Assembly: GCA_040390065.1 (NCBI GenBank)
Contig: JAZJZE010000009.1
Location: 224,001-288,000, forward strand
From: a bacterium
Lineage (GTDB): Archaea; Thermoplasmatota; E2; JACPAO01; JAHFTW01
DNA length: 64,000 nt
Reading direction: 5' to 3'
In this document: positions 40,724 to 50,207 of the stretch, one piece after another
Numbering within the stretch: position 1 is the first letter of the stretch
Layout: every line of letters starts with the position of its first letter
Position numbers and translations under genes: made by a program
The notes under the pieces: generated by a model
The model's database searches: none
What the model was told of the DNA's origin: nothing
The model's input: the letters and a program-made list of their open reading frames with translations, nothing else

Positions 40724-41728
40724 ATGGACACCAAGACCCTCGAAGCCACCGCGCAGGCGCTGGTCGCCGGCACGAAGGGCATCCTCGCGGCCGACGAGTC
40801 GACGGCGACGATCGGCAAGCGCTTCCAGGCCATCGGCACCGAGTCGACGGAGTCGAGCCGCCGCGACTACCGCCACCTCCTCTTCACGACGCCGGGTGCG
40901 GGGGATTCGGTAAGCGGCGCCATCCTCTACGACGAGACGTTGCGGCAGAAGGCGTCGGACGGGACGCCCATTGTCAGCGTGCTGGCCAAGGCCGGCATCA
41001 TCCCCGGCATCAAGGTCGACACGGGCGCATACGACCTGCCCAACTTCCCGGGCGAGAAGATCACGGAAGGGCTCGACGGGCTGCGCGGGCGCCTAGCGGA
41101 GTACCACAAGATCGGGGCGCGCTTTACCAAGTGGCGCGCCGTCATCACGATTGGCGACGGCATCCCGACCGGGTACTGCATCAAGGCCAACGCGCAGGCC
41201 CTCGCACGCTACGCAGCCTTGGCGCAGGAAGCCGGACTGGTCCCCATCGTCGAGCCCGAAGTCCTCATGGACGCGGACAACACGGTCGAGCGCTGCGAAG
41301 AGGTGACGGCCGAAGCGTGGCGCGTCACGTTCAACGCCTTGCGCAAGGCCCGCGTGCACCTGCCCGGAATGCTCCTCAAGCCGAACATGGTGATTGCTGG
41401 CAAGAAGTGCCCGGTGCAGGCGCCTGCCCAAGTCGTGGCGGAGCGCACCGTCACGCTGCTGCGCGCCCATGTCCCCCCCGCCGTGCCGGGCATCGTCTTC
41501 CTGTCTGGTGGCCAGTCGCCCGAGCAGGCAACGGAACACCTGCGTCTCATGAACCGCCTTGGTCCGCACCCGTGGAAACTGTCGTTCAGCTACGGCCGCG
41601 CCCTGCAGGACCCGGCCTTGAAGGCGTGGGGCGGCAAGCCGGCAAACGTCAAAGCTGCGCAGGACGCGTTTGCCAAGGTCGCAAGGGCGAATGCGGCGGC
41701 GTGCGCGGGAAAGACCCTCGTGGCGTAG
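40724..41728 (+). CDS. fba: Class I fructose-bisphosphate aldolase (eukaryote/bacterial glycolytic type)
   Basis: KGILAADES, GIKVD, KWRAV, VPIVEPEV, LLKPNMV, FLSGGQS, SFSYGRALQ. Confidence 0.95.
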   Translation: MDTKTLEATAQALVAGTKGILAADESTATIGKRFQAIGTESTESSRRDYRHLLFTTPGAGDSVSGAILYDETLRQKASDGTPIVSVLAKAGIIPGIKVDTGAYDLPNFPGEKITEGLDGLRGRLAEYHKIGARFTKWRAVITIGDGIPTGYCIKANAQALARYAALAQEAGLVPIVEPEVLMDADNTVERCEEVTAEAWRVTFNALRKARVHLPGMLLKPNMVIAGKKCPVQAPAQVVAERTVTLLRAHVPPAVPGIVFLSGGQSPEQATEHLRLMNRLGPHPWKLSFSYGRALQDPALKAWGGKPANVKAAQDAFAKVARANAAACAGKTLVA

Positions 41729-41799
41729 GCCGCCGTCCTGCCTCGCAGACGTCGACCGGCCACGCCAGGCTCCGACCGCGGCGACGCGCACGAGGTGGC

Positions 41800-42141
41800 C
41801 GCGTGGCTGAGTGTGGGAAACCTGGGAGAACAGGAATCTCGTGAAGAGAACGGGAATGGGTTCCTGTTCTCCGTTCGTCTCCGGTTCTCCCAGGCCGCCC
41901 GTGCCTGAAAGGCCAGGAAACCGTGGAAAATGGGTGAAACGCGTTTCCGGTTTTCGGCGATTTCCTGAGCTTCCAGGCCCCCGGCGGCCCCAGCCATCGC
42001 TGCGCTCGGCTCGCCTCGCCCTCGCTCTGCGCGCTTCGCGGCGCATTCGCTCGCCCCGACCGGGGGCTGCTTCGTGTCCCTTCCATTCCTTCATGACGTC
42101 GCCGCCGTCGGAGGAACGCGGGAATGGTTCGTTGACCTGGA
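41800..42141 (+). repeat. Left arm of a 342-bp perfect inverted repeat (partner 46752-47093)
   Basis: cgcgtggctgagtgtgggaaacctgggag...gttgacctgga is the reverse complement of 46752-47093. The same shadow peptides appear at 41811(+) and 47082(-). It extends ~10 bp further inward with 2 mismatches. Confidence 0.97.
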
Positions 42142-42155
42142 CAAGCAGGTTTTCC

Positions 42156-43136
42156 CTACGGCTGGGGCGAGCTTGCCGCGACGAGGTCTGGCATCTTCGT
42201 CCGTCCGCACAGCCACGCGTACAGTGCGTCTTCGCGGTAGCCGAACGGCGAGAGAAGGGTCTCGACGTTGCGCGCGAGGAGCCGGACGTAGGCGTCGATG
42301 GAGTACGTCTCGCGCGGCGAGCCGAACCATGGCGATTGCTTGCCGAGGAGTTCCACGGGTTTGACCCGCGCATCCCAAGGGCCCGTCTGGCGCGACACGA
42401 CGTACTTGACGTATTCGCCGGGCTTGCGTTCGGTGCCGGCGTCGCGCAGGAGTCTGAGGGCCGCCTTGGTGCCCGTGTTGGCGCTGTAGTCCTCGACGCT
42501 CATGCGGGCTTGCAGCATGAGGCCCAGGTCCTCGGGGTCGACTTCGCGTCGGCGCAGGCGTCCGGCGGCCTCCTTCGCGACGGCAAGGGCGCGTGGGATG
42601 CGCAGCAGGAAACCTTTGGCGTCATCCGCTTCGGCAAAGACGTCCAGCATGCCCTGCTGCACGTCGTACAGAAACGGCGGCGTGCTGTGGCGTTGCACCT
42701 CGATGCCGCGCACTTTGAGGGTGCCGTCCTCGAACTTGCCGTAGTAGCGGTTGGGCACGCCGACTTCGCTTGAGGTGCTGTGGGTCTTCGACGGCAACAG
42801 GACGAGCCAGCGGTAGACGCCTTCCACGTCCATGGGGACGCCGACTTCCTTGGAGACGAGGTGCGACACGTGCACGGCGTCGGCGCGCGTGATGCCGGGC
42901 TTGTGCAGGAAGACGCAGTCCGTGAGCGCGTGCACCATCGTGTAGCCTTCGCGCTGCGCCACTTCGCGGGCGCGCGTCATGCCCGCTCGTCCCAAGCATT
43001 GGATGGCCTGGTGCACCTCGGCGCAGCCGAAGCGGGCGTTGCGGTAGCGGAAGTAGCCGAAGCAGACGACGCCGAGGGCTTTGTGCTCGGATTTGATCGC
43101 TTTGGCCTTGGCGACGAGGTTGGAGGCGCTCGTCAT
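42156..43136 (-). CDS. Family B DNA polymerase (PolB2 type), C-terminal part: second finger helix, palm motifs B/C, thumb
   Basis: KSEHKALGVVCFGYFRYRNARFGCAEVH (motif B), HALTDCVF (PolB2-type motif C), NRYYG, KVRGIEVQRHSTP. The ATG overlaps the RelE stop (ATGA). Confidence 0.9.
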   Translation of the reverse strand: MTSASNLVAKAKAIKSEHKALGVVCFGYFRYRNARFGCAEVHQAIQCLGRAGMTRAREVAQREGYTMVHALTDCVFLHKPGITRADAVHVSHLVSKEVGVPMDVEGVYRWLVLLPSKTHSTSSEVGVPNRYYGKFEDGTLKVRGIEVQRHSTPPFLYDVQQGMLDVFAEADDAKGFLLRIPRALAVAKEAAGRLRRREVDPEDLGLMLQARMSVEDYSANTGTKAALRLLRDAGTERKPGEYVKYVVSRQTGPWDARVKPVELLGKQSPWFGSPRETYSIDAYVRLLARNVETLLSPFGYREDALYAWLCGRTKMPDLVAASSPQP

Positions 43137-43390
43137 CGGTACACCATCGAGCGGTGGCCGAAACGGAAGAACACAATTTCGTTTTCCTGGACGGCGTACA
43201 TGCCGCGATAACGGCCGACATGGACGCGATATGCTCCTCCATGCATCTTCATGACGTCGAGGCCTGGTCGAGGACGAAACGGGTTTTCCTGGAGCATCGT
43301 GAAGGCCTTCTTGAAATGCCGCTGGACAGGGTCGGGCAGGTCATCCAACTCCAGGAGGGCCGACGGGGCGATCGTGACAACAAACGGCAT
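43133..43390 (-). CDS. RelE/ParE family toxin
   Basis: 85 aa; A.LELDDLP...F.KAF.ML.ENPF, DVMKM.G...YRVHVGRYR.MY, FRFGHRSMVYR. Confidence 0.85.
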   Translation of the reverse strand: MPFVVTIAPSALLELDDLPDPVQRHFKKAFTMLQENPFRPRPGLDVMKMHGGAYRVHVGRYRGMYAVQENEIVFFRFGHRSMVYR

Positions 43391-43391
43391 C

Positions 43392-43616
43392 CTATACGAA
43401 CTTCCCTTTCTTGCTGTCCCACGTCAAGCGCGGGCGTTCCTTCATGCGGCGGTCCATCTCCTTCCAGAACGCCTCCGTCGGGGTCTCGTCCATGAATGCG
43501 TTGAGCACGTCGTCGTACGTCTTGCCACCTACTTTGTACGACCTGAGGCGCCGGAGGGTCTCAGGCTTGACGGGGACGGAAGTGAAAGTGGTCGTGCGCA
43601 GGGGGGCCTTGGCCAT
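43392..43616 (-). CDS. Putative antitoxin (archaeal RHH/DUF7557-like)
   Basis: TSVPVKPETLRRLRSYKVGGKTYDDVLN, directly upstream of the RelE toxin. Confidence 0.8.
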   Translation of the reverse strand: MAKAPLRTTTFTSVPVKPETLRRLRSYKVGGKTYDDVLNAFMDETPTEAFWKEMDRRMKERPRLTWDSKKGKFV

Positions 43617-43649
43617 GACAATCATTACAGTCATGACAATCATGAACGT
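43614..43649. repeat. Four 9-bp tandem units upstream of the TA operon (possible operator)
   Basis: catgacaat cattacagt catgacaat catgaacgt. Confidence 0.7.
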
Positions 43650-43737
43650 TGCGGCAGCGGATTCATTTCACTGTCCCGGCCCAAACCATTGTCTACGCCA
43701 AGTCCATCGCATGCTGCCGCCCAGGCGGAAGTGAACC

Positions 43738-44154
43738 ATGGCCACCCAGACCAAGCAGACCCAGAAGCCCGCAGCCTCAATGACCTCGCGCAAGGTGCGT
43801 CCCGGTTTCATCTCGCACACCGAGCTCGCCAGCAAGGACCCTGCCGCCACGAAGGCGTGGTGCCAGAACGTCCTCGGGTGGCAGTTCGGCGCCCCCGTCG
43901 CGACTCCCAACGGCGACTACCACATGTGGCAGTTCGACGAGGCCAACGGCGGCGGCATCCGCAACACCAACGCGGGCGAACCCGGCGGCACCGTCCCCTA
44001 CGCCGAGGTCACCGACATCAAGGCCGCCTACGCCAAGGCCAAGAAGGCTGGCGCCACCGAGATGATGCCGCCCAGCGAAGTGCCCGGCGGCGGCTGGATC
44101 GCCATCGTGCAAGCCCCGGGTTCCGTCCCGATCGGGTTCTGGGCGCCGAAGTGA
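43738..44154 (+). CDS. VOC/glyoxalase family protein
   Basis: GFISHTELASKDPAATKAW...LGWQF, GGGI, YAEVTDI, GWIAIVQAPG...GFW. Confidence 0.9.
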   Translation: MATQTKQTQKPAASMTSRKVRPGFISHTELASKDPAATKAWCQNVLGWQFGAPVATPNGDYHMWQFDEANGGGIRNTNAGEPGGTVPYAEVTDIKAAYAKAKKAGATEMMPPSEVPGGGWIAIVQAPGSVPIGFWAPK

Positions 44155-44158
44155 AGCG

Positions 44159-44542
44159 CTAGCGCACGAACCACGCCGCAACCGATTCCGCGGCGAAGAG
44201 GGCGATGCCGATGCCGGTCCCGATGGCGGAGCCGTTTGGGCCCGTCGACAGGCTTTGCCACAGCGCGATGAGTGTGGCGGCCATGATGCCAGAGGCAAGA
44301 GACGCAATGCCCAGGCCCACGGCCGTATCGGCCCCCACTCGCCACGCGCCGTAGAGCATCACGGCGCCGCAGCCGACGGGCAAGAACCCGATGGCCAGCA
44401 GTCGGGCAAGGCGGGCATCGAAGCCGCCGCGTTCGCCGAAAGCAACCATCGTCACGGCGATCCAGTGGCCGACGCCCGAGAGGAGGGCCACGGCACCGAG
44501 GAGGAAAGCGGCAGTCGTTGCAATCCCCTGTGGGGTTGCCAC
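44159..44542 (-). CDS. Small 4-TM membrane protein
   Basis: Four hydrophobic segments. It fills the space between polB2-N and the VOC gene. Confidence 0.6.
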   Translation of the reverse strand: MATPQGIATTAAFLLGAVALLSGVGHWIAVTMVAFGERGGFDARLARLLAIGFLPVGCGAVMLYGAWRVGADTAVGLGIASLASGIMAATLIALWQSLSTGPNGSAIGTGIGIALFAAESVAAWFVR

Positions 44543-44576
44543 GCCGTGGCATCGGGCAAGCGGACTTGGAGTTTCG

Positions 44577-45941
44577 CTATCCCGGGGCCTTCGCCTTCTT
44601 GAGCACGGCCTTCGCCCAGCGCCGGTGGCCCCACAAGCGACGCAGGATCTCTGACTGGTGTCCCTGCTCCTTGCAGACGTGGTAGCCGAGTTCCGGGATG
44701 ACTTCGCCGTCGGGGCAGCACGTGCAATTCAGGGTATCGGACGAGAGGTTGTGGCGCACGACCAGGCTCGGGTAGTAGCCTGAGAAATCGCATGCCGCGA
44801 CGTCCTCGTACAGGCCGGGTTCCGGCACCATGATCTGGCCGCCGCGGTCGACGGCGCAGAGTGTGGCTGCGTCCTTCCAGTCTTCGGCCAGGTTGCGTTT
44901 CCACGGCAAGGCGACACCGCGGTCGGTGGCGAGGTCGATCTGCATCTGCTGCAGGGCGAAGCCGGCGCCGTTACGGTTGACATCCTGGGCTCTGCGGTTG
45001 GCCACACGTGCGAGGTACACGATGCCATGCAGGTCCTTGCGGTCGTCTTCGGAGTCGAGCGTCTTCTTGGCGAGGTCGATGTGCCAGCGGCCGCGCAAGT
45101 AGAAGGCGTGCGTCTTGAACAGCCAGCGGCCGTACGTGTGGATGCTCTTGCTGGCCTGGTCGGGCTTGTCGGGCAACGGGTCGGCGTCACGGCCCAGGCG
45201 CACCTCACCCTCGATGCCCAGGGCCTTGATGCGGCTGAGGAGGAACGGAATGTCGAAGCGGTCGCCATGGCGCGTCACGATGACATCAGGGTCCAGAAGC
45301 GCAAGGGACGATGCAAAGGCGCGAAGCGTGTCGCGCTCTGCGGCTGCATCGCCAGGCGCCGCGCACGGCAGGACCTCGTCGCCGAGGCGGATGGACTCGA
45401 GCGGGTCCGTGAAGGCGGGCACGTAGCCGTCCTTGCGCGCGGTGACCTCGAGGCGTACAGTGCGCAGGTCGGGATCGGGGTATTCGACGGTCCAGCGGTC
45501 TTCCCCCGGTGCCGGGCGCAGTTCGATGCCCGAGGCCGAGGTTGCAAGGCGGCACATGGACCACAATCCCTGCGCATGCATCCAGCGCGACTCCTGGCCG
45601 TGGTCGACGTCGAAGAACAGGAAGCCCTTCGTGTGCGTGCGGCGCCGCAGGTCCGTCGCGATGGCCCACGTATCCTGCAGGCGCTTGGGTCGCACGCGAA
45701 GCACCTCGGTCTCGGGTCCGCGCAGCCACAGCCGTTGCCGGGACCTCCAAGTCTTGTCGACGCGGCCGTCCTGCGCTAGCAGTTTTTCCGCAAGCGACAG
45801 CGGCTGTGTCTCGGCCTTGACGCAGAAATCCGGGAAGTAGGGCACGAGCCGCTTCGTGACGGCATCGCCGTGCTTGACCCAGACGACGAGGCAGGACTTG
45901 CGCGGATGGGGGTAGACGTCGAAGAGCCAGGCGTCATCCAT
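44577..45941 (-). CDS. Family B DNA polymerase (PolB2 type), N-terminal part: N-domain, degenerate exonuclease, motif A, first finger helix
   Basis: WLFDVYP, DPDVIVTRHGDRFDIPFL, LRGRWHID, DRGGQIMVPEPGLYEDV, DFSGYYPS (motif A), HNLSSDTLNCTCC. It ends ...HRRWAKAVLKKAKAPG*. Confidence 0.9.
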   Translation of the reverse strand: MDDAWLFDVYPHPRKSCLVVWVKHGDAVTKRLVPYFPDFCVKAETQPLSLAEKLLAQDGRVDKTWRSRQRLWLRGPETEVLRVRPKRLQDTWAIATDLRRRTHTKGFLFFDVDHGQESRWMHAQGLWSMCRLATSASGIELRPAPGEDRWTVEYPDPDLRTVRLEVTARKDGYVPAFTDPLESIRLGDEVLPCAAPGDAAAERDTLRAFASSLALLDPDVIVTRHGDRFDIPFLLSRIKALGIEGEVRLGRDADPLPDKPDQASKSIHTYGRWLFKTHAFYLRGRWHIDLAKKTLDSEDDRKDLHGIVYLARVANRRAQDVNRNGAGFALQQMQIDLATDRGVALPWKRNLAEDWKDAATLCAVDRGGQIMVPEPGLYEDVAACDFSGYYPSLVVRHNLSSDTLNCTCCPDGEVIPELGYHVCKEQGHQSEILRRLWGHRRWAKAVLKKAKAPG

Positions 45942-45963
45942 GCCGACGCACCCCTGGACGAAC

Positions 45964-45997
45964 CACTGAACGCACTGAACGCACTGAAATCACTGAA
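45964..45997. repeat. Four CACTGAA boxes at exact 9-bp spacing upstream of polB2-N
   Basis: cactgaa at 45964, 45973, 45982 and 45991. Confidence 0.8.
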
Positions 45998-46126
45998 CCC
46001 CGCAACCCGTCTGCGAAGCCCTGCTTCGCCAAGTCCTCGAAAGGTCCTCAGGTTGCGACGACGGCTTCCTCCACGCGGACCTCAAGATGGGCCTGGAAAA
46101 CCAGGAAATCGAAGAAAACAAGGAAG

Positions 46127-46225
46127 GCCGCCGGTCGGGGCGAGCACGCCGTCGGCGCAGCCGCGGCGAGGCGAGGGCGTGGCAAGCGCGCGATGCGGAG
46201 CAAGCGCGCGAGGGCCGCCGGCGGC
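46127..46225. repeat. Dispersed hairpin repeat, copy 3
   Basis: gccgccggtcggggcgagc...gtggcaagcgcgcga...gggccgccggcggc aligns with the reverse complement of 17390-17484. Confidence 0.75.
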
Positions 46226-46245
46226 AGCGGAAAGCCACAGCAGCT

Positions 46246-46614
46246 TCACGCTTCCACGAGGACCGTCTGCCCGATGCGGCCCAACTCGTAGGCATCGGGT
46301 GCCTTGACGCGGCTCTCGACGAGGCCTGCGCCACGCAGCGCGGTCAGCGCCGCTTCGAGGTCGCGCCGCAGAAGGGCGAGTTCGCGGTTCTGGCCGTCCA
46401 CCATCCGCATGCCCTCCAGTAGCATGGCCAGCATGACGGGGCGTTCGAAGTCGAGGTGCGGGCGCCGGTTGATGGCGTTGGAGTGGCGGCGGGCGCGGCA
46501 GACGAGTTCGTCGAACCACTCCTGCTCGCGCGGGTGCAGTTCGGCGCGAAACTGGGCGTAGCGAGAAAGGAAGATGTCCAGCGCGATTGTCGTGGTCGGG
46601 GTGGATTGTCCCAT
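46246..46614 (-). CDS. Small alpha-helical PolB2-associated protein (arCOG07300-like)
   Basis: MGQSTPT...YAQFRAELHPREQEWFDELVCRARRHSNAI...VMLAMLLE plus a coiled-coil tail. It lies upstream of polB2. Confidence 0.82.
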   Translation of the reverse strand: MGQSTPTTTIALDIFLSRYAQFRAELHPREQEWFDELVCRARRHSNAINRRPHLDFERPVMLAMLLEGMRMVDGQNRELALLRRDLEAALTALRGAGLVESRVKAPDAYELGRIGQTVLVEA

Positions 46615-46751
46615 GGGATTCGCTTGTAGTGGGCACAGGTTCTTCTGTTGCTTTATGGGGTGAGTGAAAACGGCACGGCGAAATAACTGGGTGAAGCGAA
46701 CGTACCATCTGACGGGCCACGGACTGCATCGATTGCACGACAACCTGCATC

Positions 46752-47093
46752 TCCAGGTCAACGAACCATTCCCGCGTTCCTCCGACGGCGGCGACGTCAT
46801 GAAGGAATGGAAGGGACACGAAGCAGCCCCCGGTCGGGGCGAGCGAATGCGCCGCGAAGCGCGCAGAGCGAGGGCGAGGCGAGCCGAGCGCAGCGATGGC
46901 TGGGGCCGCCGGGGGCCTGGAAGCTCAGGAAATCGCCGAAAACCGGAAACGCGTTTCACCCATTTTCCACGGTTTCCTGGCCTTTCAGGCACGGGCGGCC
47001 TGGGAGAACCGGAGACGAACGGAGAACAGGAACCCATTCCCGTTCTCTTCACGAGATTCCTGTTCTCCCAGGTTTCCCACACTCAGCCACGCG
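46752..47093 (-). repeat. Right arm of the 342-bp perfect inverted repeat
   Basis: tccaggtcaacgaaccattcc...ggtttcccacactcagccacgcg is the reverse complement of 41800-42141. Confidence 0.97.
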
Positions 47094-47128
47094 AACCTAC
47101 TTGCCGAAAAGGGCGGCCACGCCGCCAG

Positions 47129-47854
47129 TCATCCGAGTTTGGCCTGCTGCGGCTTCTTGGCACTGGCCTCACCCCAAACCTTGGCTCCGCCTTGCGGTTT
47201 CACGGCCTCGGGATCCCCGCGCCGCTTCCACACGTCCTCGGCGATGGGCACCATCTCGTACGCGTCGTTGGCCGCCGGAACGAGGAGGTTCTGCAAGGCC
47301 TCCTTCCCCGTTGCCGCCGGATCCATCCAAGCGTCTTGCCGGACCCGCGAATCCAATTCCACCACGAAGCGGTCGTGGACCTGCGCCACGAAGTCGTTGG
47401 CCGGCGCCGTCACTTGCACGTGGCCGAGGTCGTCGTACTCGTTGCCCGTACTGGTGAAGGCGTAGTGACGGCGGGCCATGAGGGCTGCAACGACCATCAG
47501 CTTGCCATCGCGGCGTTGGATGCGGAAGGCGGCCTTGGTCTTCGCGTCGCGCTCGACGACGTAGGAGATTGCGGCGAGCGCGTGGTGCTCCGGCTTGCCG
47601 AAGAGACCGCGCCACGCCGGGGATACGAGGTTGTCTCCTCGCGCATTCGTCAGCAGGCGTGGGCCGACCGGCATCCCGAGGCGCACCTTGTCCACGACGC
47701 GCTCGCCACCCTCGAGGCGGGCCACCGGCAGGAAGTCGGCGTGGTGCACGAGCGGCCGCGCGATGCGGTCGCCGGCGTCGTAGACGTAGCGCGTGCCGCC
47801 GAGGGCGTCGATGACCTCCATCGAGCTTGCATCGATGCCTTCGAGTCCGGCCAT
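47129..47854 (-). CDS. SOS response-associated peptidase (SRAP/HMCES) family protein, divergent paralogue 2
   Basis: LTNARGDNL...AWRGLF, ALAAISYVVE, VTAPANDFVAQVHDRFVVEL...WMDP. The N-terminus is MAGLEGI. Confidence 0.8.
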   Translation of the reverse strand: MAGLEGIDASSMEVIDALGGTRYVYDAGDRIARPLVHHADFLPVARLEGGERVVDKVRLGMPVGPRLLTNARGDNLVSPAWRGLFGKPEHHALAAISYVVERDAKTKAAFRIQRRDGKLMVVAALMARRHYAFTSTGNEYDDLGHVQVTAPANDFVAQVHDRFVVELDSRVRQDAWMDPAATGKEALQNLLVPAANDAYEMVPIAEDVWKRRGDPEAVKPQGGAKVWGEASAKKPQQAKLG

Positions 47855-47862
47855 GCCACATC

Positions 47863-48576
47863 TCAGAACCAGGTTGCCGGCTTCTTCGCCGCCGCCTTGC
47901 GGGGTGTTGCGCCGTAGCGCATCGCTTCGCCGATCGGAACCAAGTCGGCGTCCTCGCGGATGCCTGGCTTGAAGATGCGGTCGTCCACGGGGACGGCTTC
48001 CCATTCGTCCTCCGCCGGATGGTGCAGGATCGCCGCGGCCTCCTTCTTTTCCGTCGCGGCCATCCATGCGTCGGCCTCCTTGGGCGACAGCGTGCAGACC
48101 TGGCGGTCGTGGAACTGGCCGAAGAACTTGTTCGGCGCCGTCGTCACGATGGCGCAGCACAACCTGCCTTCGCCCTCGTCCATCTTGCGGGGTGCGCAGA
48201 GGCCCGGCATGACGATTGGTCGGCCGTCGATGCGGCGGAACCACAGGCTCGTCTTCTTGCCGTCGATGGTGGCTTGCTCGTAGATGCCCGTGGCGGCAAC
48301 CAGGCACGGTGACTTTGCGAGCATCGAACCCCACATCGGGCTCTCCAGCAAGCGGTCGTCCCGAGCGTTGCCGACGGGCCGGCCGCCGCCGACGGGGAAG
48401 CCCCAGCGCGCACGCACGGCCACACGTTCCCGGTCCTTGTTGACGGCGATGGGCAGGGTCGTCGTGAGGCGGACGACGGGGTGCGGAACCCAGTCGCCCT
48501 CGTAGTCCCACTTGGAGACGCGCAGGGCGTCCTGGATGTCGATGTCGGCGGCTTGCAGTCCGATGAGGCCGGCCAC
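47863..48576 (-). CDS. SRAP/HMCES family protein, paralogue 1
   Basis: ARWGFP, NARDDRL.ESPMW, CLVAATGIYE, CAIVTTAPN...FHDRQVCTL...AW. The GTG start MAGLIGL is inferred by alignment with paralogue 2. Confidence 0.88.
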   Translation of the reverse strand: MAGLIGLQAADIDIQDALRVSKWDYEGDWVPHPVVRLTTTLPIAVNKDRERVAVRARWGFPVGGGRPVGNARDDRLLESPMWGSMLAKSPCLVAATGIYEQATIDGKKTSLWFRRIDGRPIVMPGLCAPRKMDEGEGRLCCAIVTTAPNKFFGQFHDRQVCTLSPKEADAWMAATEKKEAAAILHHPAEDEWEAVPVDDRIFKPGIREDADLVPIGEAMRYGATPRKAAAKKPATWF

Positions 48577-48602
48577 GGCGTGCGACACGGTGGCGCGGCT
48601 GT

Positions 48603-50207
48603 CTACTTTGCGGCCTTGCGCAGGAGCGGCCGTTCCACGCCGATTGCGTAGGTCTTGTAGCGACCTTGGAAACGCACGGCGATGATGCCCTCGTTCTGCA
48701 AACGGGCCAAGCGGTGCTGCGTCGTGCTGCGCGACCAGCCGCACGTCTCCATGGCGTTGAGGACATCCTTCTGCGGGGCGCCCGGGTGGGCCTCGATCCA
48801 GGAGCGCAGGTTCGCCAACTCAGGATCGCGCAGCACGGCGGTATGGCGCCACGTTTCGGTGTAGCGGCCGTGGTTCTCGAAGAAACGCATGCGCGAATGG
48901 TGTTGGTACTCGATGACGAGCCCGGCGCGCTTCAGGACGTTGAGGTGGTGCCGCGTCGTGCCCGTCGGGATGCGTACACTTCGGCAGACCTCGCGGAAGC
49001 TGGCACCGGGGTGCTCGCAGATGAAGGCGTGCAGGCTGGCGCGGCGCGGATGGGCAAGCGGGTCCTGCGGCGCGGTGAGAAGCGGCGCCAGGAAACGCAA
49101 CAGGACCAGGAGCGCCGCAAGGCCGAGGACGGCCTCACCAGTGACCGCGATGCCGGACACGAGGGTCGCCGGTGCCGGGCTTTCGTCGAGTCGCGCGTCC
49201 TGAAGCTCACCGCCGAATCCGGCAGCCGCCGAACGAGGGCCGGTCGAATGCAGCCCGCCCAGGATGACGTGGCCCGAGGCAAGCAGCGTCTGGTTGTGGG
49301 GCCCATCGCACTGCGCGCAAGAGGACGCCGAGGCAAGGGGCAGACGGACCCAGCCATCGACCTCGACATCGAAGGCCGGCCCGCCGGCCAGCGCGAAGTC
49401 GAGGGCCCCTTGCGCAGTGAGGTTGCCGCCATTCGTCCGGAACTCCTGGTGCGACAGATGGTCGACCGTCACCTCGCTGCCTGCAAGGGAGGGCGCAGCG
49501 ATGCGGGTGCGGCCGCCCGGCGGCGGGCATGGTCTTTGGGTGCACTCGGTGGACGCGTTGAACCATTCGAGTTGCCGCACGCCGGTGGCGTTGAGGGTGA
49601 ACATTTCGCCACGCCCGTTTGCCCAGACGAGGTACGTTTCGTTGTCCGGGACGTCCGGAACGCGCACCGCCAAAGGCTCGTCGATGACGGTTGGCAGGAG
49701 CGGACCGATGCCTTCGTTGGAGTTGGCGATGGCGGCCCGTCCCGTGGTCCTGAAGTCGATGCGGTCGGCCACGAGGACGAGGGAGGAGGAACCAGGGCGG
49801 CGGAAGTCGAGGGACAGGTCGTTCCATGGCGCCGGATCTTGGCGCGGTGCGTCCTGGCCTGGCCCCATCCAGCCGCCTCCCAGTGTGCCGTTGCGCATCG
49901 CTCGGACGTTCTGCATGGTGTGGTTGACGAGGGTGCCCCCGCCGAGGTTCTCGGCCCGAAGTGTGACGGCATCCGGACCGTCGGCCATGAACCAGAGGAT
50001 CAGTCGCGTCACGGCGGTCGCGTTCTCGTGCCCCCCGGCGGCGGCAGGGATCGCAAACGAGACTCTGGGCTGGTCCGCGTCCGTTGCGACGGCGGTGGGG
50101 GGGAGCACGGCGGCAAGGACGATGGCGATGCTGGCCGCGACCTGCAACCGCAACCGTAGGCGTGGGGCTGCGTGGCCGGAGTTGGAAGCGAATCTGTTGG
50201 TCTGCAT
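48603..50207 (-). CDS. Membrane-anchored regulator: extracellular domain, TM helix, tandem C-terminal winged HTH
   Basis: N-terminal signal/TM segment, TM GLAALLVLLRFL, PLAHPRRASL...HPGASFRE...TRHHLNVL, second HTH HPGAPQKD...STTQHRLARL. Confidence 0.8.
   Translation of the reverse strand: MQTNRFASNSGHAAPRLRLRLQVAASIAIVLAAVLPPTAVATDADQPRVSFAIPAAAGGHENATAVTRLILWFMADGPDAVTLRAENLGGGTLVNHTMQNVRAMRNGTLGGGWMGPGQDAPRQDPAPWNDLSLDFRRPGSSSLVLVADRIDFRTTGRAAIANSNEGIGPLLPTVIDEPLAVRVPDVPDNETYLVWANGRGEMFTLNATGVRQLEWFNASTECTQRPCPPPGGRTRIAAPSLAGSEVTVDHLSHQEFRTNGGNLTAQGALDFALAGGPAFDVEVDGWVRLPLASASSCAQCDGPHNQTLLASGHVILGGLHSTGPRSAAAGFGGELQDARLDESPAPATLVSGIAVTGEAVLGLAALLVLLRFLAPLLTAPQDPLAHPRRASLHAFICEHPGASFREVCRSVRIPTGTTRHHLNVLKRAGLVIEYQHHSRMRFFENHGRYTETWRHTAVLRDPELANLRSWIEAHPGAPQKDVLNAMETCGWSRSTTQHRLARLQNEGIIAVRFQGRYKTYAIGVERPLLRKAAK

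What the first reader, a model, noticed from the sequence alone, without database searches (positions are those of the whole stretch)
42156..45941. PolB2 split cleanly at the fingers tip into two genes, with four cargo genes inside the split
Seen: the N part (44577-45941) has motif A DFSGYYPS and ends right after the first finger helix (HRRWAKAVLKKAKAPG*). The C part (42156-43136) starts just before the second finger helix and motif B (KAIKSEHKALGVVCFGY) and keeps HALTDC. The 1.44 kb between them holds a membrane gene, VOC, antitoxin and RelE. Neither half shows frameshifts. The C part has its own ATG overlapping the RelE stop (ATGA). No intein termini are visible. Established: functional two-subunit PolBs exist (Methanothermobacter PolB, and gp43A/gp43B of some T4-like phages split in the fingers). 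I do not know of one described for archaeal PolB2. Inference: this is a heterodimeric error-prone polymerase rather than a dead gene, and the split may be a cargo insertion hotspot.
Basis: partly seen in the sequence, partly recalled or inferred. Interest (0 to 1): 0.85.

Follow-up and report, generated by a model that had tools for sequence, protein, structure and literature searches.

The report
Naturally split archaeal PolB2 polymerase
A damage-tolerance DNA polymerase of a soil or groundwater archaeon is encoded as two separate genes cut at the tip of its fingers domain, with unrelated genes lodged in the gap, and many relatives carry the same cut with different lodgers, so it looks like a working two-piece enzyme and not a dead gene.

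Summary
ORFs 44577-45941(-) and 42156-43136(-) are the N and C parts of one PolB2-type family B polymerase. Against intact relatives no residue is missing, and the cut lies in the variable loop between the two finger helices. The 1440-nt gap holds a membrane protein, a VOC/glyoxalase gene, an RHH antitoxin and a ParE/RelE toxin.

The split is neither private nor decaying:
- 12 of 32 species-level loci and 2 of 13 metagenome loci are cut at the same loop. Their inserts run from 0.35 to over 2.5 kb and differ in content (toxin-antitoxin (TA) pair, HlyIII, DsbA, kelch, GDSL lipase, Pirin, BNR).
- About 30 N-only and 47 C-only protein clusters exist in public data.
- Codon omega is about 0.05 in split halves and 0.04-0.05 in intact genes.
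- A complex model scores 0.86, against 0.00 for the best control.
- Split forms are not one clade (AU p 4.5e-50).

Relatives carry iRadA and a PPB2-like gene upstream and SRAP genes downstream, which supports the PolB2 assignment.

Best reading: a functional heterodimeric PolB2, probably first split by an RHH-RelE cassette, whose gap became ordinary intergenic space. Activity and expression are untested. I found no published description. It is a new variant of a known kind (T4-like gp43A/B, engineered split Pfu).

The parts
44577..45941 (-). PolB2 N subunit (454 aa): N-terminal and decayed exonuclease domains, palm motif A (DFSGYYPS), a Cys-rich insert and the first finger helix. It ends 6 residues after ...AVLKKAK.
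44159..44542 (-). Cargo 1: 127-aa hydrophobic (membrane) protein, on the same strand, 35 nt after the N-subunit stop.
   Evidence: no Pfam or NCBIfam family. No homolog in the 45 related loci.
43738..44154 (+). Cargo 2: VOC/glyoxalase-family protein (138 aa) on the opposite strand. It separates the two polymerase halves into different transcription units.
   Evidence: PF00903, E 1.3e-5
43612..43645 (-). AT-rich element: three CATGACAATCAT-like units 9 nt apart, partly palindromic, at the 5' end of the antitoxin gene. Putative TA promoter/operator that would also drive the C subunit (inference).
   Evidence: The same element stands in L010 and L024. In L006 only the matching N-terminal residues of the antitoxin ORF were read.
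43392..43643 (-). Cargo 3: RHH-like antitoxin (83 aa as listed; a later ATG at 43616 gives 74 aa).
   Evidence: Homologs sit in the split site of L006, L010, L024 and L059. All 3 relatives' copies at 68% identity or more lie inside a split polB2.
43133..43390 (-). Cargo 4: ParE/RelE-family toxin (85 aa). Its stop overlaps the C-subunit start (ATGA).
   Evidence: (PF05016, E 1.1e-9)
42156..43136 (-). PolB2 C subunit (326 aa): second finger helix with degenerate motif B (KALGVVCFGY), motif C HALTDC (L-T-D, first Asp lost), rest of palm, and thumb.
46246..46617 (-). PPB2-like small helical protein (123 aa) upstream of the N subunit. It is conserved upstream of polB2 in relatives.
   Evidence: tblastn hits in 32 of 45 loci. 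The AF2 model shows three helices, the last one long. The Foldseek search gave nothing significant.
41800..42154 (.). Arm 1 of a 355-nt inverted repeat, 99% identical to arm 2. It starts 2 nt after the C-subunit stop codon.
46739..47093 (.). Arm 2 of the inverted repeat. The two arms enclose the PPB2-like gene, both polymerase halves and the cargo.
47863..48744 (-). SRAP (abasic-site protection) gene next to the module. This gene family is reported as enriched near polB2.
   Evidence: (PF02586, E 7e-28), PMC11791011 section 3.1

Best explanation
The two ORFs encode the two subunits of a working PolB2-type translesion/extender polymerase, split at the tip of the fingers domain.

- Assembly. The N subunit brings motif A and the first finger helix. 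The C subunit brings the second finger helix, motif C and the thumb. They should assemble into the normal family B fold, because the cut lies in a surface loop that tolerates a break.
- Origin (inferred). The split most likely began when an RHH-RelE toxin-antitoxin cassette landed in the fingertip loop of an ancestral polB2 allele.
- Later history (inferred). The space between the N half and the cassette then behaved as ordinary intergenic DNA and took up or exchanged other genes. Split and intact alleles were exchanged among related genomes or paralogs by homologous recombination through the very conserved flanks.
- Expression in this genome (inferred). The C subunit is translationally coupled to the toxin gene, and is probably transcribed from the TA promoter, separately from the N subunit.

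What is shown and what is not:
- Shown: anatomy, recurrence, purifying selection, gene neighbourhood.
- Inferred: assembly, activity, origin, expression.
For: 1. No residue is lost at the cut, and the cut maps to the fingertip.
2. The same cut recurs:
   - 12 of 32 genome loci, namely L005, L006, L010, L011, L013, L014, L015, L019, L024, L027, L029, L033.
   - 2 of 13 metagenome loci (L048, L059).
   - Where both halves are on the contig, both are open frames.
3. Protein databases. Of the 114 hits to the N half, 30 end 10-35 aa after the HRR anchor. Of the 117 C-half hits held in the script box, 47 start 7-75 aa before the KSEHK anchor, many with M in place of the V of the loop motif VDxDxV.
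4. Omega (GY+F3X4+G4):
   - N split 0.051 (11 sequences), C split 0.055 (10).
   - N intact 0.046 (20), C intact 0.040 (23).
   - Terminal branch lengths of split and intact rows are alike.
5. Catalytic residues. The motif A Asp and the second Asp of motif C are kept. The first Asp of DxD is Leu, as in most PolB2 (PMC11791011 sections 3.1 and 3.2).
6. Complex model. ipSAE 0.86/0.86/0.85 against a best control of 0.00, with 352-356 contacts and partner pLDDT 82. That mark was reached by 58 of 80 solved complexes and 2 of 110 mismatched pairs. The counts hold only roughly, because my own alignments were used.
7. An engineered Pfu polymerase split between residues 467 and 468 near the fingertip behaves like wild type, and T4-like gp43 is naturally split there (PMC3061061, passages).
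8. Same cassette, same junctions. The RHH gene and its AT-rich element follow the N half in L010 and L024. L024 keeps only the RHH gene plus the last codons of RelE, and L010 keeps a 54-aa RelE remnant.
9. In 41 related genomes, all 3 antitoxin copies at 68% identity or more (besides the window's own) lie inside a split polB2.
Against: - No RNA or protein evidence. No RNA run holding this stretch was listed.
- The complex model may pass only because it resembles solved single-chain polymerases.
- Synonymous sites are saturated (tree lengths 12.7-26 substitutions per codon), and the split and intact subsets share internal branches. Omega therefore cannot speak for this genome's own terminal branch.
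- In this genome the halves are in different transcription units (VOC on the opposite strand), and the iRadA partner lies about 80 kb away. Stoichiometric assembly is therefore not guaranteed.
- In G041 (the genome of L013) no C half was found. The completeness of that genome is not known to me.
- Motif B has lost its N-S pair. What this does to activity is unknown.
- A single ancient cassette insertion would need several returns to the intact state. The alternative, repeated insertion, lacks a mechanism. No signature of co-transfer was seen near the junction.
Confidence: 0.8

Rival explanations
1. Recent pseudogenisation: an insertion killed polB2 in this genome, and the two ORFs are still open only because too little time has passed.
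For: The gene is accessory: 25 of 41 related genomes, the window's own included, have a match. The module is rearranged here: the iRadA-like gene is 80 kb away, and the module is flanked by 99% identical inverted repeats.
Against: - The same split occurs in genomes whose halves are only 56-87% identical to these, with both frames open.
- Omega is about 0.05 in split sets.
- C halves have acquired start codons exactly at the loop.
- The closest known N half (P0001, 87%) and C half (P0116, 84%) are also separate proteins.
Confidence: 0.07
2. The gene is made whole again before use: the cargo is removed at the DNA level (an excising element, as in sigK or nifD), at the RNA level, or at the protein level (split intein).
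For: - Intact alleles are nested among split ones on the tree.
- A low-depth contig of a related organism in run X2 joins 43073 to 44832, with side 20 and likeness 90-95%. This is weak.
Against: - No recombinase, Hint or homing-endonuclease domain among the cargo ORFs scanned here and in relatives.
- No flanking direct repeats beyond 10-14 nt chance-level matches.
- Both halves have their own stop and start codons. One cargo gene is on the opposite strand.
- The only contig of the likely source run that spans the site carries the cargo.
Confidence: 0.04
3. The halves no longer work together as a polymerase. One or both were kept for another role, for example the N half as a DNA- or partner-binding scaffold of the PPB2/iRadA complex.
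For: - No C half was found in G041, the genome of L013.
- In G022 the halves lie on different contigs.
- PolB2 was long predicted to be inactive (PMC4104785, passages).
Against: - Both halves are conserved equally strongly (omega 0.051 against 0.055), and the catalytic Asp residues of motif A (N half) and motif C (C half) are kept.
- In 10 of 12 split genome loci the halves stay within 0.35-2.5 kb of each other on one strand.
Confidence: 0.06
4. Assembly or binning artefact: the cargo was joined into polB2 by mis-assembly.
For: The genome is a MAG of 50 contigs with dispersed repeats. Contigs of the likely source run break inside both repeat arms.
Against: - A second assembler's contig covers 42112-46781 with 0 differences, although from what is probably the same sample.
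- The same architecture appears in 12 independent genome records and 2 metagenome records.
Confidence: 0.01

Closest known systems
gp43A/gp43B split PolB of T4-like phages (Aeromonas phages 44RR, 25, 31, 65; Acinetobacter phage 133), as summarised in PMC3061061 (passages). I did not read the original Petrov et al. papers.
   Same: A natural split inside the fingertip of a family B polymerase. There are two cistrons, 2 bp to 3 kb apart, with variable intervening DNA. The authors regard the fingers tip as a hotspot for insertion elements.
   Different: Those are replicative phage enzymes, and their inserts are untranslated spacers, a homing endonuclease gene or an intron. Here a cellular archaeal repair polymerase (PolB2) is split, and the inserts are a toxin-antitoxin pair and housekeeping-type genes, in many species.
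Engineered split Pfu polymerase (Pfu SQ), PMC3061061
   Same: The cut is near the fingertip (between Pfu residues 467 and 468). The cistrons are coupled through an AUGA overlap. The two fragments reconstitute an enzyme that behaves like wild type. The window's N half ends at the equivalent of Pfu 472-473.
   Different: Pfu SQ is a laboratory product of a PolB3-type replicative enzyme with nothing between the halves. Here the AUGA coupling is between the toxin gene and the C half.
Split PolB of Methanothermobacter thermautotrophicus and the split-intein PolB of Nanoarchaeum equitans (PMC4104785 and PMC3061061, passages)
   Same: Archaeal family B polymerases encoded by two genes that give a two-subunit enzyme.
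   Different: Those are PolB3-type enzymes. The Mth cut is in the palm, about 83 residues after the Pfu split site, and is ascribed to faulty intein excision. N. equitans uses trans-splicing. Here the cut is at the fingertip and no intein trace was found.
PolB2 (Dpo2) mutasome: PolB2 + PPB2 + iRadA (PMC11791011; PMC8764526 abstract)
   Same: - L-T-D in place of DxD.
- A small three-helix protein and a RadA-fold protein without a Walker A motif lie upstream, in the order iRadA-PPB2-PolB2, in relatives.
- SRAP genes lie next door.
   Different: - The polymerase is in two pieces.
- In this genome the iRadA-like gene is 80 kb away.
- That study discarded truncated sequences and never uses the word 'split'.

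Membership tests
Archaeal PolB2 (Dpo2-type family B polymerase) | First Asp of the motif C DxD replaced, second Asp kept; motif A Asp kept | tested here: met
   HALTDC aligns with the chain's ...DTD... in P. abyssi PolB, and DFSGYYPS aligns with motif A. T72 and D73 are invariant in 10 split C halves. The criterion comes from PMC11791011 sections 3.1 and 3.2.
Archaeal PolB2 (Dpo2-type family B polymerase) | Operon or neighbourhood with a small helical protein (PPB2, arCOG07300) | tested here: inconclusive
   The 123-aa ORF 46246-46617(-) has homologs upstream of polB2 in 32 of 45 loci, including Methanoperedens L035. Its model has three helices with a long last helix. No sequence or Foldseek link to a named PPB2 was obtained.
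Archaeal PolB2 (Dpo2-type family B polymerase) | Association with an inactivated RadA homolog (iRadA) | tested here: met
   - A conserved gene lies upstream of the PPB2-like gene in 24 of 45 loci.
- Its AF2 model (pLDDT 77.7, core above 90) matches DMC1/RadA/Rad51 ATPase cores at Foldseek E about 1e-10, TM about 0.6, 13-16% identity.
- It has no Pfam Rad51 hit, and the alignment shows no GKT/S Walker A motif.
- In the window's own genome it lies at C9:350781-351443, about 80 kb away and not adjacent.
Archaeal PolB2 (Dpo2-type family B polymerase) | Exonuclease active site lost | not tested
   Pfam exo1 matches only profile positions 141-225 of 242. The Exo II Asp position is kept (GDRFD). The Exo I region did not align significantly, so inactivation was not checked residue by residue.
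Archaeal PolB2 (Dpo2-type family B polymerase) | Groups with reference PolB2 (S. islandicus Dpo2) rather than PolB1 or PolB3 in a tree | not tested
   - No reference Dpo2 sequence was available from a tool.
- Indirect support: the best NCBIfam models are NF004418 and NF004416 (E 5e-83 and 2e-79 for intact P0005, below their cut-offs), far ahead of the 'polymerase I' models at E 1e-33 or weaker.
- The genome holds a second, different PolB.
Type II toxin-antitoxin pair (RelE/ParE toxin with RHH antitoxin) | Small toxin of the ParE/RelE fold directly after a small antitoxin gene, in one operon | tested here: met
   The toxin matches PF05016 at E 1.1e-9. The antitoxin stop and the toxin start are 1 nt apart. 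Homologous pairs stand in L006, L059, L031 and L062. The antitoxin has no family hit above threshold, so its RHH fold is inferred from the sequence pattern only.
Intein-split or intein-derived split polymerase | Hint/intein or homing-endonuclease sequence at the ends of the halves or in the gap | tested here: not met
   No such Pfam domain appears in either half or in any of the cargo ORFs scanned. The halves abut on intact relatives with no extra residues beyond a 2-10 aa tail and a short leader.

The most novel reading that the evidence does not exclude
The RHH-RelE cassette is more than a lodger. It may use the fingertip loop of polB2 as a safe harbour, and it may have been taken over as the switch for the polymerase.

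- Because the C half is coupled to the TA operon, a complete extender polymerase would be made only when the antitoxin-repressed promoter opens, for example under stress.
- That would explain why the RHH gene and its operator-like element are kept even where RelE has decayed (L010, L024).
- The cassette-bearing allele would spread or be lost by gene conversion between polB2 alleles or paralogs through the highly conserved finger-helix flanks. This would be an addiction-based analogue of intein or homing-endonuclease homing.
Probability: 0.2. Interest if true: 0.8.

Novelty: new variant of a known kind. Interest (0 to 1): 0.66.

Why it matters
- **Where fingertip splits occur.** In the passages I read (PMC3061061), natural fingertip splits of family B polymerases are described only for T4-like phages. 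Here the same solution appears in a cellular DNA-damage-tolerance polymerase. It is polymorphic within one genus and is carried by roughly a third of the loci of this lineage examined here.
- **A natural experiment.** The family offers matched split and intact alleles to ask what a fingertip break does to a translesion extender. The engineered Pfu split widened its substrate range.
- **A caution for surveys.** PolB2 surveys that discard 'truncated' sequences will miss these forms.
- **Gene fission and selfish cassettes.** The family gives a tractable case of a gene fission stabilised, or even driven, by a toxin-antitoxin cassette, with later growth of the gap into a small variable gene island.

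Tried and rejected
- The search for related loci with alignment A1 failed because no conserved stretch was left (the C-half row filled the alignment with gaps). I rebuilt the alignment without that row (A2) and ran it.
- Rfam at E up to 0.1 on 41000-48000 gave no match.
- the bacterial-type promoter/terminator scan gave nothing above the shuffles, and it does not suit archaea anyway.
- no RNA holder was listed. There is no evidence on expression either way.
- Logan contigs break inside both repeat arms, so the orientation of the 4.6-kb segment could not be checked. The joint seen in X2 is too weak to use.
- I looked for higher nucleotide identity near the junction among split pairs, which would be a sign of cassette co-transfer. 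There is none. Junction-proximal parts are simply more conserved in all pairs.
- Foldseek of the PPB2-like model against the PDB gave nothing significant. The sigma-E region ranked 46th with E 9.4.
- Pfam Rad51 does not detect the iRadA-like gene. Only the fold does.
- the control genomes did not tell which NCBIfam model stands for PolB2.
- no direct repeats of att or target-site-duplication type flank the cargo.
- the first parsing of the IQ-TREE output missed omega. I read it from the logs.
- Rows left out of the tree and the AU test: loci with partial N regions (L028, L029, L032, L033, L034) and all metagenome loci.
- Supplements of the PolB2 papers, which list the sequences those authors kept or dropped, could not be seen.

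Full report
**1. The observation**

The window is contig C9:224001-288000 of a 2.68-Mb, 50-contig, 89%-complete MAG with about 67% G+C.

The two polymerase ORFs:
- ORF 44577-45941(-) has 454 aa. It matches Pfam DNA_pol_B_exo1 and positions 44-142 of DNA_pol_B.
- ORF 42156-43136(-) has 326 aa. It matches positions 164-413 of the same profile.

The 1440 nt between them hold four genes:
- A 127-aa hydrophobic ORF (-).
- A Glyoxalase/VOC ORF (+).
- An 83-aa ORF (-).
- A ParE_toxin ORF (-).

The start of the C part overlaps the toxin stop as ATGA.

Aligned with five intact relatives of 779-793 aa, the N part ends and the C part begins inside the short variable loop between the two finger helices, and nothing is missing. 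A profile of N halves aligns to Pfu/Deep Vent chains and stops at their residues 472-473. An intact relative aligned to the P. abyssi PolB chain puts the cut in the same loop. According to PMC3061061 (passages), Pfu residues 471-473 are the fingertip.

A Logan contig of 4670 nt from the run that probably gave this MAG covers 42112-46781 without a difference. The architecture is therefore not an artefact of one assembler.

**2. It recurs**

*Loci.* A scan of one genome per GTDB species gave 32 loci, all but one from Thermoplasmatota-type MAGs by their titles. tblastn with the two halves and reading of the junctions gave these classes:
- Intact, 20 loci: L004, L007, L008, L009, L012, L016, L017, L018, L020-L023, L025, L026, L028, L030-L032, L034, L035.
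- Cut at the same loop, 12 loci.
  - In ten of them the C half follows 0.35-2.5 kb downstream on the same strand: L005, L006, L010, L014, L015, L019, L024, L027, L029, L033.
  - In two of them no C half lies within 1.5 or 3 kb: L011, L013.
- Of 13 metagenome loci, 2 are split (L048, L059), 8 are intact and 3 end before the site.

*Within the genus.* Among the 12 other species of the window's own genus, 8 have the gene. Four are split (G002, G003, G004, G012) and four are intact (G006, G008, G010, G011).

*Protein collection.*
- Of the 114 hits to the N half, 30 end 10-35 residues after the HRR anchor.
- Of the 117 hits to the C half held in the script box, 47 begin 7-75 residues before the KSEHK anchor.
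- Many C halves start MDxDxV, where intact proteins read VDxDxV.

*One case of halves apart.* In G022 (the genome of L011) a stand-alone C half sits on another contig, again preceded by an RHH-RelE pair. In G041 (the genome of L013) none was found.

**3. The cargo varies** (Pfam scans, tblastn)

- Window: membrane protein, VOC, antitoxin, toxin.
- L006: a kelch/galactose-oxidase-like gene on the other strand, then the same antitoxin (83% identical) and a ParE toxin.
- L010: the antitoxin and a 54-aa toxin remnant.
- L024: the antitoxin only, followed by the last codons of the toxin.
- L059: the antitoxin and toxin in the opposite orientation.
- L005: DsbA and a RelE-like ORF.
- L014, L015, L019, L027, L033: a HlyIII gene that begins at or overlaps the stop of the N half. 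L027 also has two Zn_ribbon_2 genes, and L033 a Pirin.
- L029: a GDSL lipase.
- L048: a BNR-repeat protein.
- L013: a 373-aa ORF and an SNF2 helicase.

No recombinase, intein or homing-endonuclease domain was seen in any of the cargo ORFs scanned.

**4. Both halves are under selection**

IQ-TREE codon models (GY+F3X4+G4, fast search) give the following omega values:

| Set | Sequences | Codons | Omega |
|---|---|---|---|
| Split N halves | 11 | 430 | 0.051 |
| Split C halves | 10 | 299 | 0.055 |
| N regions of intact genes | 20 | 435 | 0.046 |
| C regions of intact genes | 23 | 295 | 0.040 |

Synonymous sites are saturated, with tree lengths of 12.7-26 substitutions per codon, and the subsets share internal branches. 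The figures therefore show strong constraint in the family and say nothing about this genome's own branch.

Terminal branches of split and intact rows are of similar length. The motif A Asp and the second motif C Asp are kept.

**5. Do the halves bind?**

A complex model of the two halves, with alignments of 22 and 10 rows, scored ipSAE 0.86, 0.86 and 0.85. The best of three controls scored 0.00.
- The runs had 352-356 contacts and agreed in at least 80% of them. The partner's pLDDT was 82.
- The mark was reached by 58 of 80 solved complexes and 2 of 110 mismatched pairs. These counts hold only roughly, because my own alignments were used.
- The interface is the one expected of an unbroken family B fold: the motif A strands lie against the motif C strands, and finger helix lies against finger helix.
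- Because it mirrors solved single-chain polymerases, the pass may come from memory. It shows likeness, not binding.

Independent support comes from the literature. Pfu polymerase split between residues 467 and 468 and translated from an AUGA-coupled bicistron behaves like wild type. The gp43 of several T4-like phages is naturally split in the fingertip, with 2 bp to 3 kb between the cistrons (PMC3061061, abstract and passages).

**6. What kind of polymerase**

- *Motif C.* It reads L-T-D. Loss of the first Asp of DxD is the hallmark of most PolB2 (PMC11791011 sections 3.1 and 3.2; PMC4104785 passages).
- *PPB2-like gene.* The 123-aa ORF upstream of the N half has homologs upstream of polB2 in 32 of 45 loci. 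It models as three helices with a long last helix. That fits the published description of PPB2, but no direct link was obtained.
- *iRadA-like gene.* A further conserved gene lies upstream of the PPB2-like gene in 24 of 45 loci.
  - It has no Pfam hit and no Walker A motif.
  - It folds like the RadA/DMC1/Rad51 ATPase core: Foldseek E about 1e-10, TM about 0.6.
  - This fits iRadA in the published order iRadA-PPB2-PolB2.
  - In the window's genome this gene lies about 80 kb away.
- *SRAP genes.* They are reported as enriched near polB2. They occur in 24 of 45 loci, often in several copies, and one lies at 47863-48744 here.
- *Not done.* I did not place the family in a tree with a reference Dpo2, and I did not check the exonuclease residues one by one.
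- *Function by analogy.* Dpo2 of S. islandicus is an active polymerase without proofreading that extends mismatched and lesion-opposed termini (PMC8764526, abstract).

**7. History of the split**

*Split forms are not one clade.* On a tree of 28 N regions (quick search), split and intact rows are interspersed. At least 7 changes of state are needed, 4 of them forced by starred branches. The AU test rejects a single clade of the 11 split rows: log-likelihood difference 262, p 4.5e-50.

*The TA-bearing inserts are nevertheless homologous.*
- An AT-rich, partly palindromic element precedes the RHH gene in the window, L010 and L024. In the window it is three 12-nt units spaced 9 nt apart. In L006 only the matching N-terminal residues of the RHH ORF were read.
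- In L010 and L024 the stop codon of the N half lies inside this element.
- L024 retains the toxin's last codons just before the start of the C half.
- In 41 related genomes, all 3 antitoxin copies at 68% identity or more (besides the window's own) lie inside a split polB2.
- The next two copies (64% and 55%) lie elsewhere. One of them is about 4 kb downstream of an intact polB2 (G008, equivalent to L031).
- The cassette is single-copy in the window's genome.

*My reading (inference).* A cassette from the polB2 neighbourhood entered the loop once, or a few times.
- The loop is the one place where a break is harmless, so only such insertions survive.
- The gap then gained and lost genes like any intergenic region.
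- Split and intact alleles were exchanged by homologous recombination between alleles or paralogs. Three of the 25 genomes with a match carry two copies of the family at 43% identity or more.
- The flanks are the most conserved DNA of the gene: 72-87% nucleotide identity in the first 70 codons of the C part, against 62-74% in its distal part.
- A direct test for co-transfer found no signal, so this step stays open.

**8. Expression (inference)**

- In L015 and L024 the gap is a single gene packed between the halves, with start and stop codons overlapping or a few nucleotides apart. This suggests one operon.
- In L010 the gap holds the antitoxin gene and the toxin remnant, and the antitoxin start overlaps the N-half stop in the same way.
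- In the window the opposite-strand VOC gene separates the halves, so the C half must be transcribed with the TA pair.
- The RHH gene and its element are retained where the toxin has decayed (L010, L024). This suggests that they now serve the C half, possibly as a stress-responsive switch. That is the boldest reading the data allow.

**9. Surroundings**

- A 355-nt inverted repeat, 99% identical, has arms at 41800-42154 and 46739-47093. It encloses the PPB2-like gene, both halves and the cargo.
- It belongs to a dispersed family with 51 matches in the genome. The other copies are 86% identical or less, and no full-length copy exceeds 81%.
- In the closest relatives (L004, L006) the best SRAP match lies just downstream of polB2 and converges on it. 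Here it lies beyond the PPB2-like gene on the same strand.
- This is what an inversion between the two arms would give. However, contigs of the likely source run break inside both arms, so the orientation is unconfirmed.

**10. Novelty**

Full-text searches found no description of a split PolB2:
- 'PolB2 + split + archaea'.
- 'split + family B DNA polymerase + Thermoplasmatota'.
- 'split DNA polymerase + fingers + two genes + archaeal'.
- In-paper searches of the three recent PolB surveys.

The 2025 PolB2 survey states that truncated sequences were discarded. Its supplements could not be seen, and subscription journals are not in the library.

Verdict: a real, conserved feature that was interpreted correctly, and a new variant of the known fingertip-split family B polymerases.

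Noticed in passing
window 41800-42154 and 46739-47093; a partial third copy at about 46080-46230: A 355-nt inverted repeat (99% identical) flanks the whole PPB2-polB2 module. The unit belongs to a dispersed family with 51 matches in the 2.68-Mb genome. The other copies are 86% identical or less (no full-length copy above 81%), and the unit shows internal self-complementarity. It has no Rfam match. It may be a MITE-like element.
   Followed up: partly
window 42155-46738 against L004 and L006: Relative to the SRAP gene, the module's orientation is the reverse of that in the two closest relatives, as if the segment between the repeat arms had been inverted. Logan contigs stop inside both arms, so the orientation is unverified, and both isomers could exist.
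   Followed up: partly
G000:C9:350781-351443 (L061:1471-2250, minus strand), outside the window: The iRadA-like partner gene, adjacent to PPB2-polB2 in most relatives, lies about 80 kb from the polymerase in this genome.
   Followed up: partly
L004, L006, L025, L049 and 20 other loci, downstream of polB2: One to four SRAP paralogs are clustered next to polB2 in 24 of 45 loci. L006 and L025 each give four separate tblastn matches.
   Followed up: no
window 43603-43618 against 44584-44595 and 43104-43117: The first codons of the antitoxin (M-A-K-A-P) nearly repeat the last codons of the N half (A-K-A-P-G) and resemble the L-V-A-K-A codons of the C half (11 of 12 and 12 of 14 nt). This may be chance in GCC/AAG-rich sequence, or it may be a trace of microhomology at the original insertion.
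   Followed up: no
window 44577-45941(-), residues 405-428 of the N half: An invariant Cys/His cluster (C406, C408, C409, H421, C423, H428) lies between motif A and the first finger helix, conserved in all 17 rows of alignment A2. It may be a metal site.
   Followed up: no
L031:8990-9480 and G008:C6:50117-50323: In a basal lineage with an intact polB2, a homologous RHH-RelE pair lies 3-4 kb downstream of the polymerase. It is a candidate source of the cassette that later split the gene.
   Followed up: partly
one search hits P0173-P0231: Bacterial proteins (labelled Armatimonadetes, Nitrospinota and 'bacterium') match the C half at 35-41% identity. Many are only 290-400 aa long. They may be contig fragments, or bacterial PolB2 may also occur split.
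   Followed up: no
G002, G010, G017: Three of the 25 genomes with a match carry two copies of this polB2 family, at 43-74% identity to the window's N half. Within one GTDB genus the gene's identity to the window's ranges from 43% to 76%, which suggests old alleles or lateral transfer.
   Followed up: no
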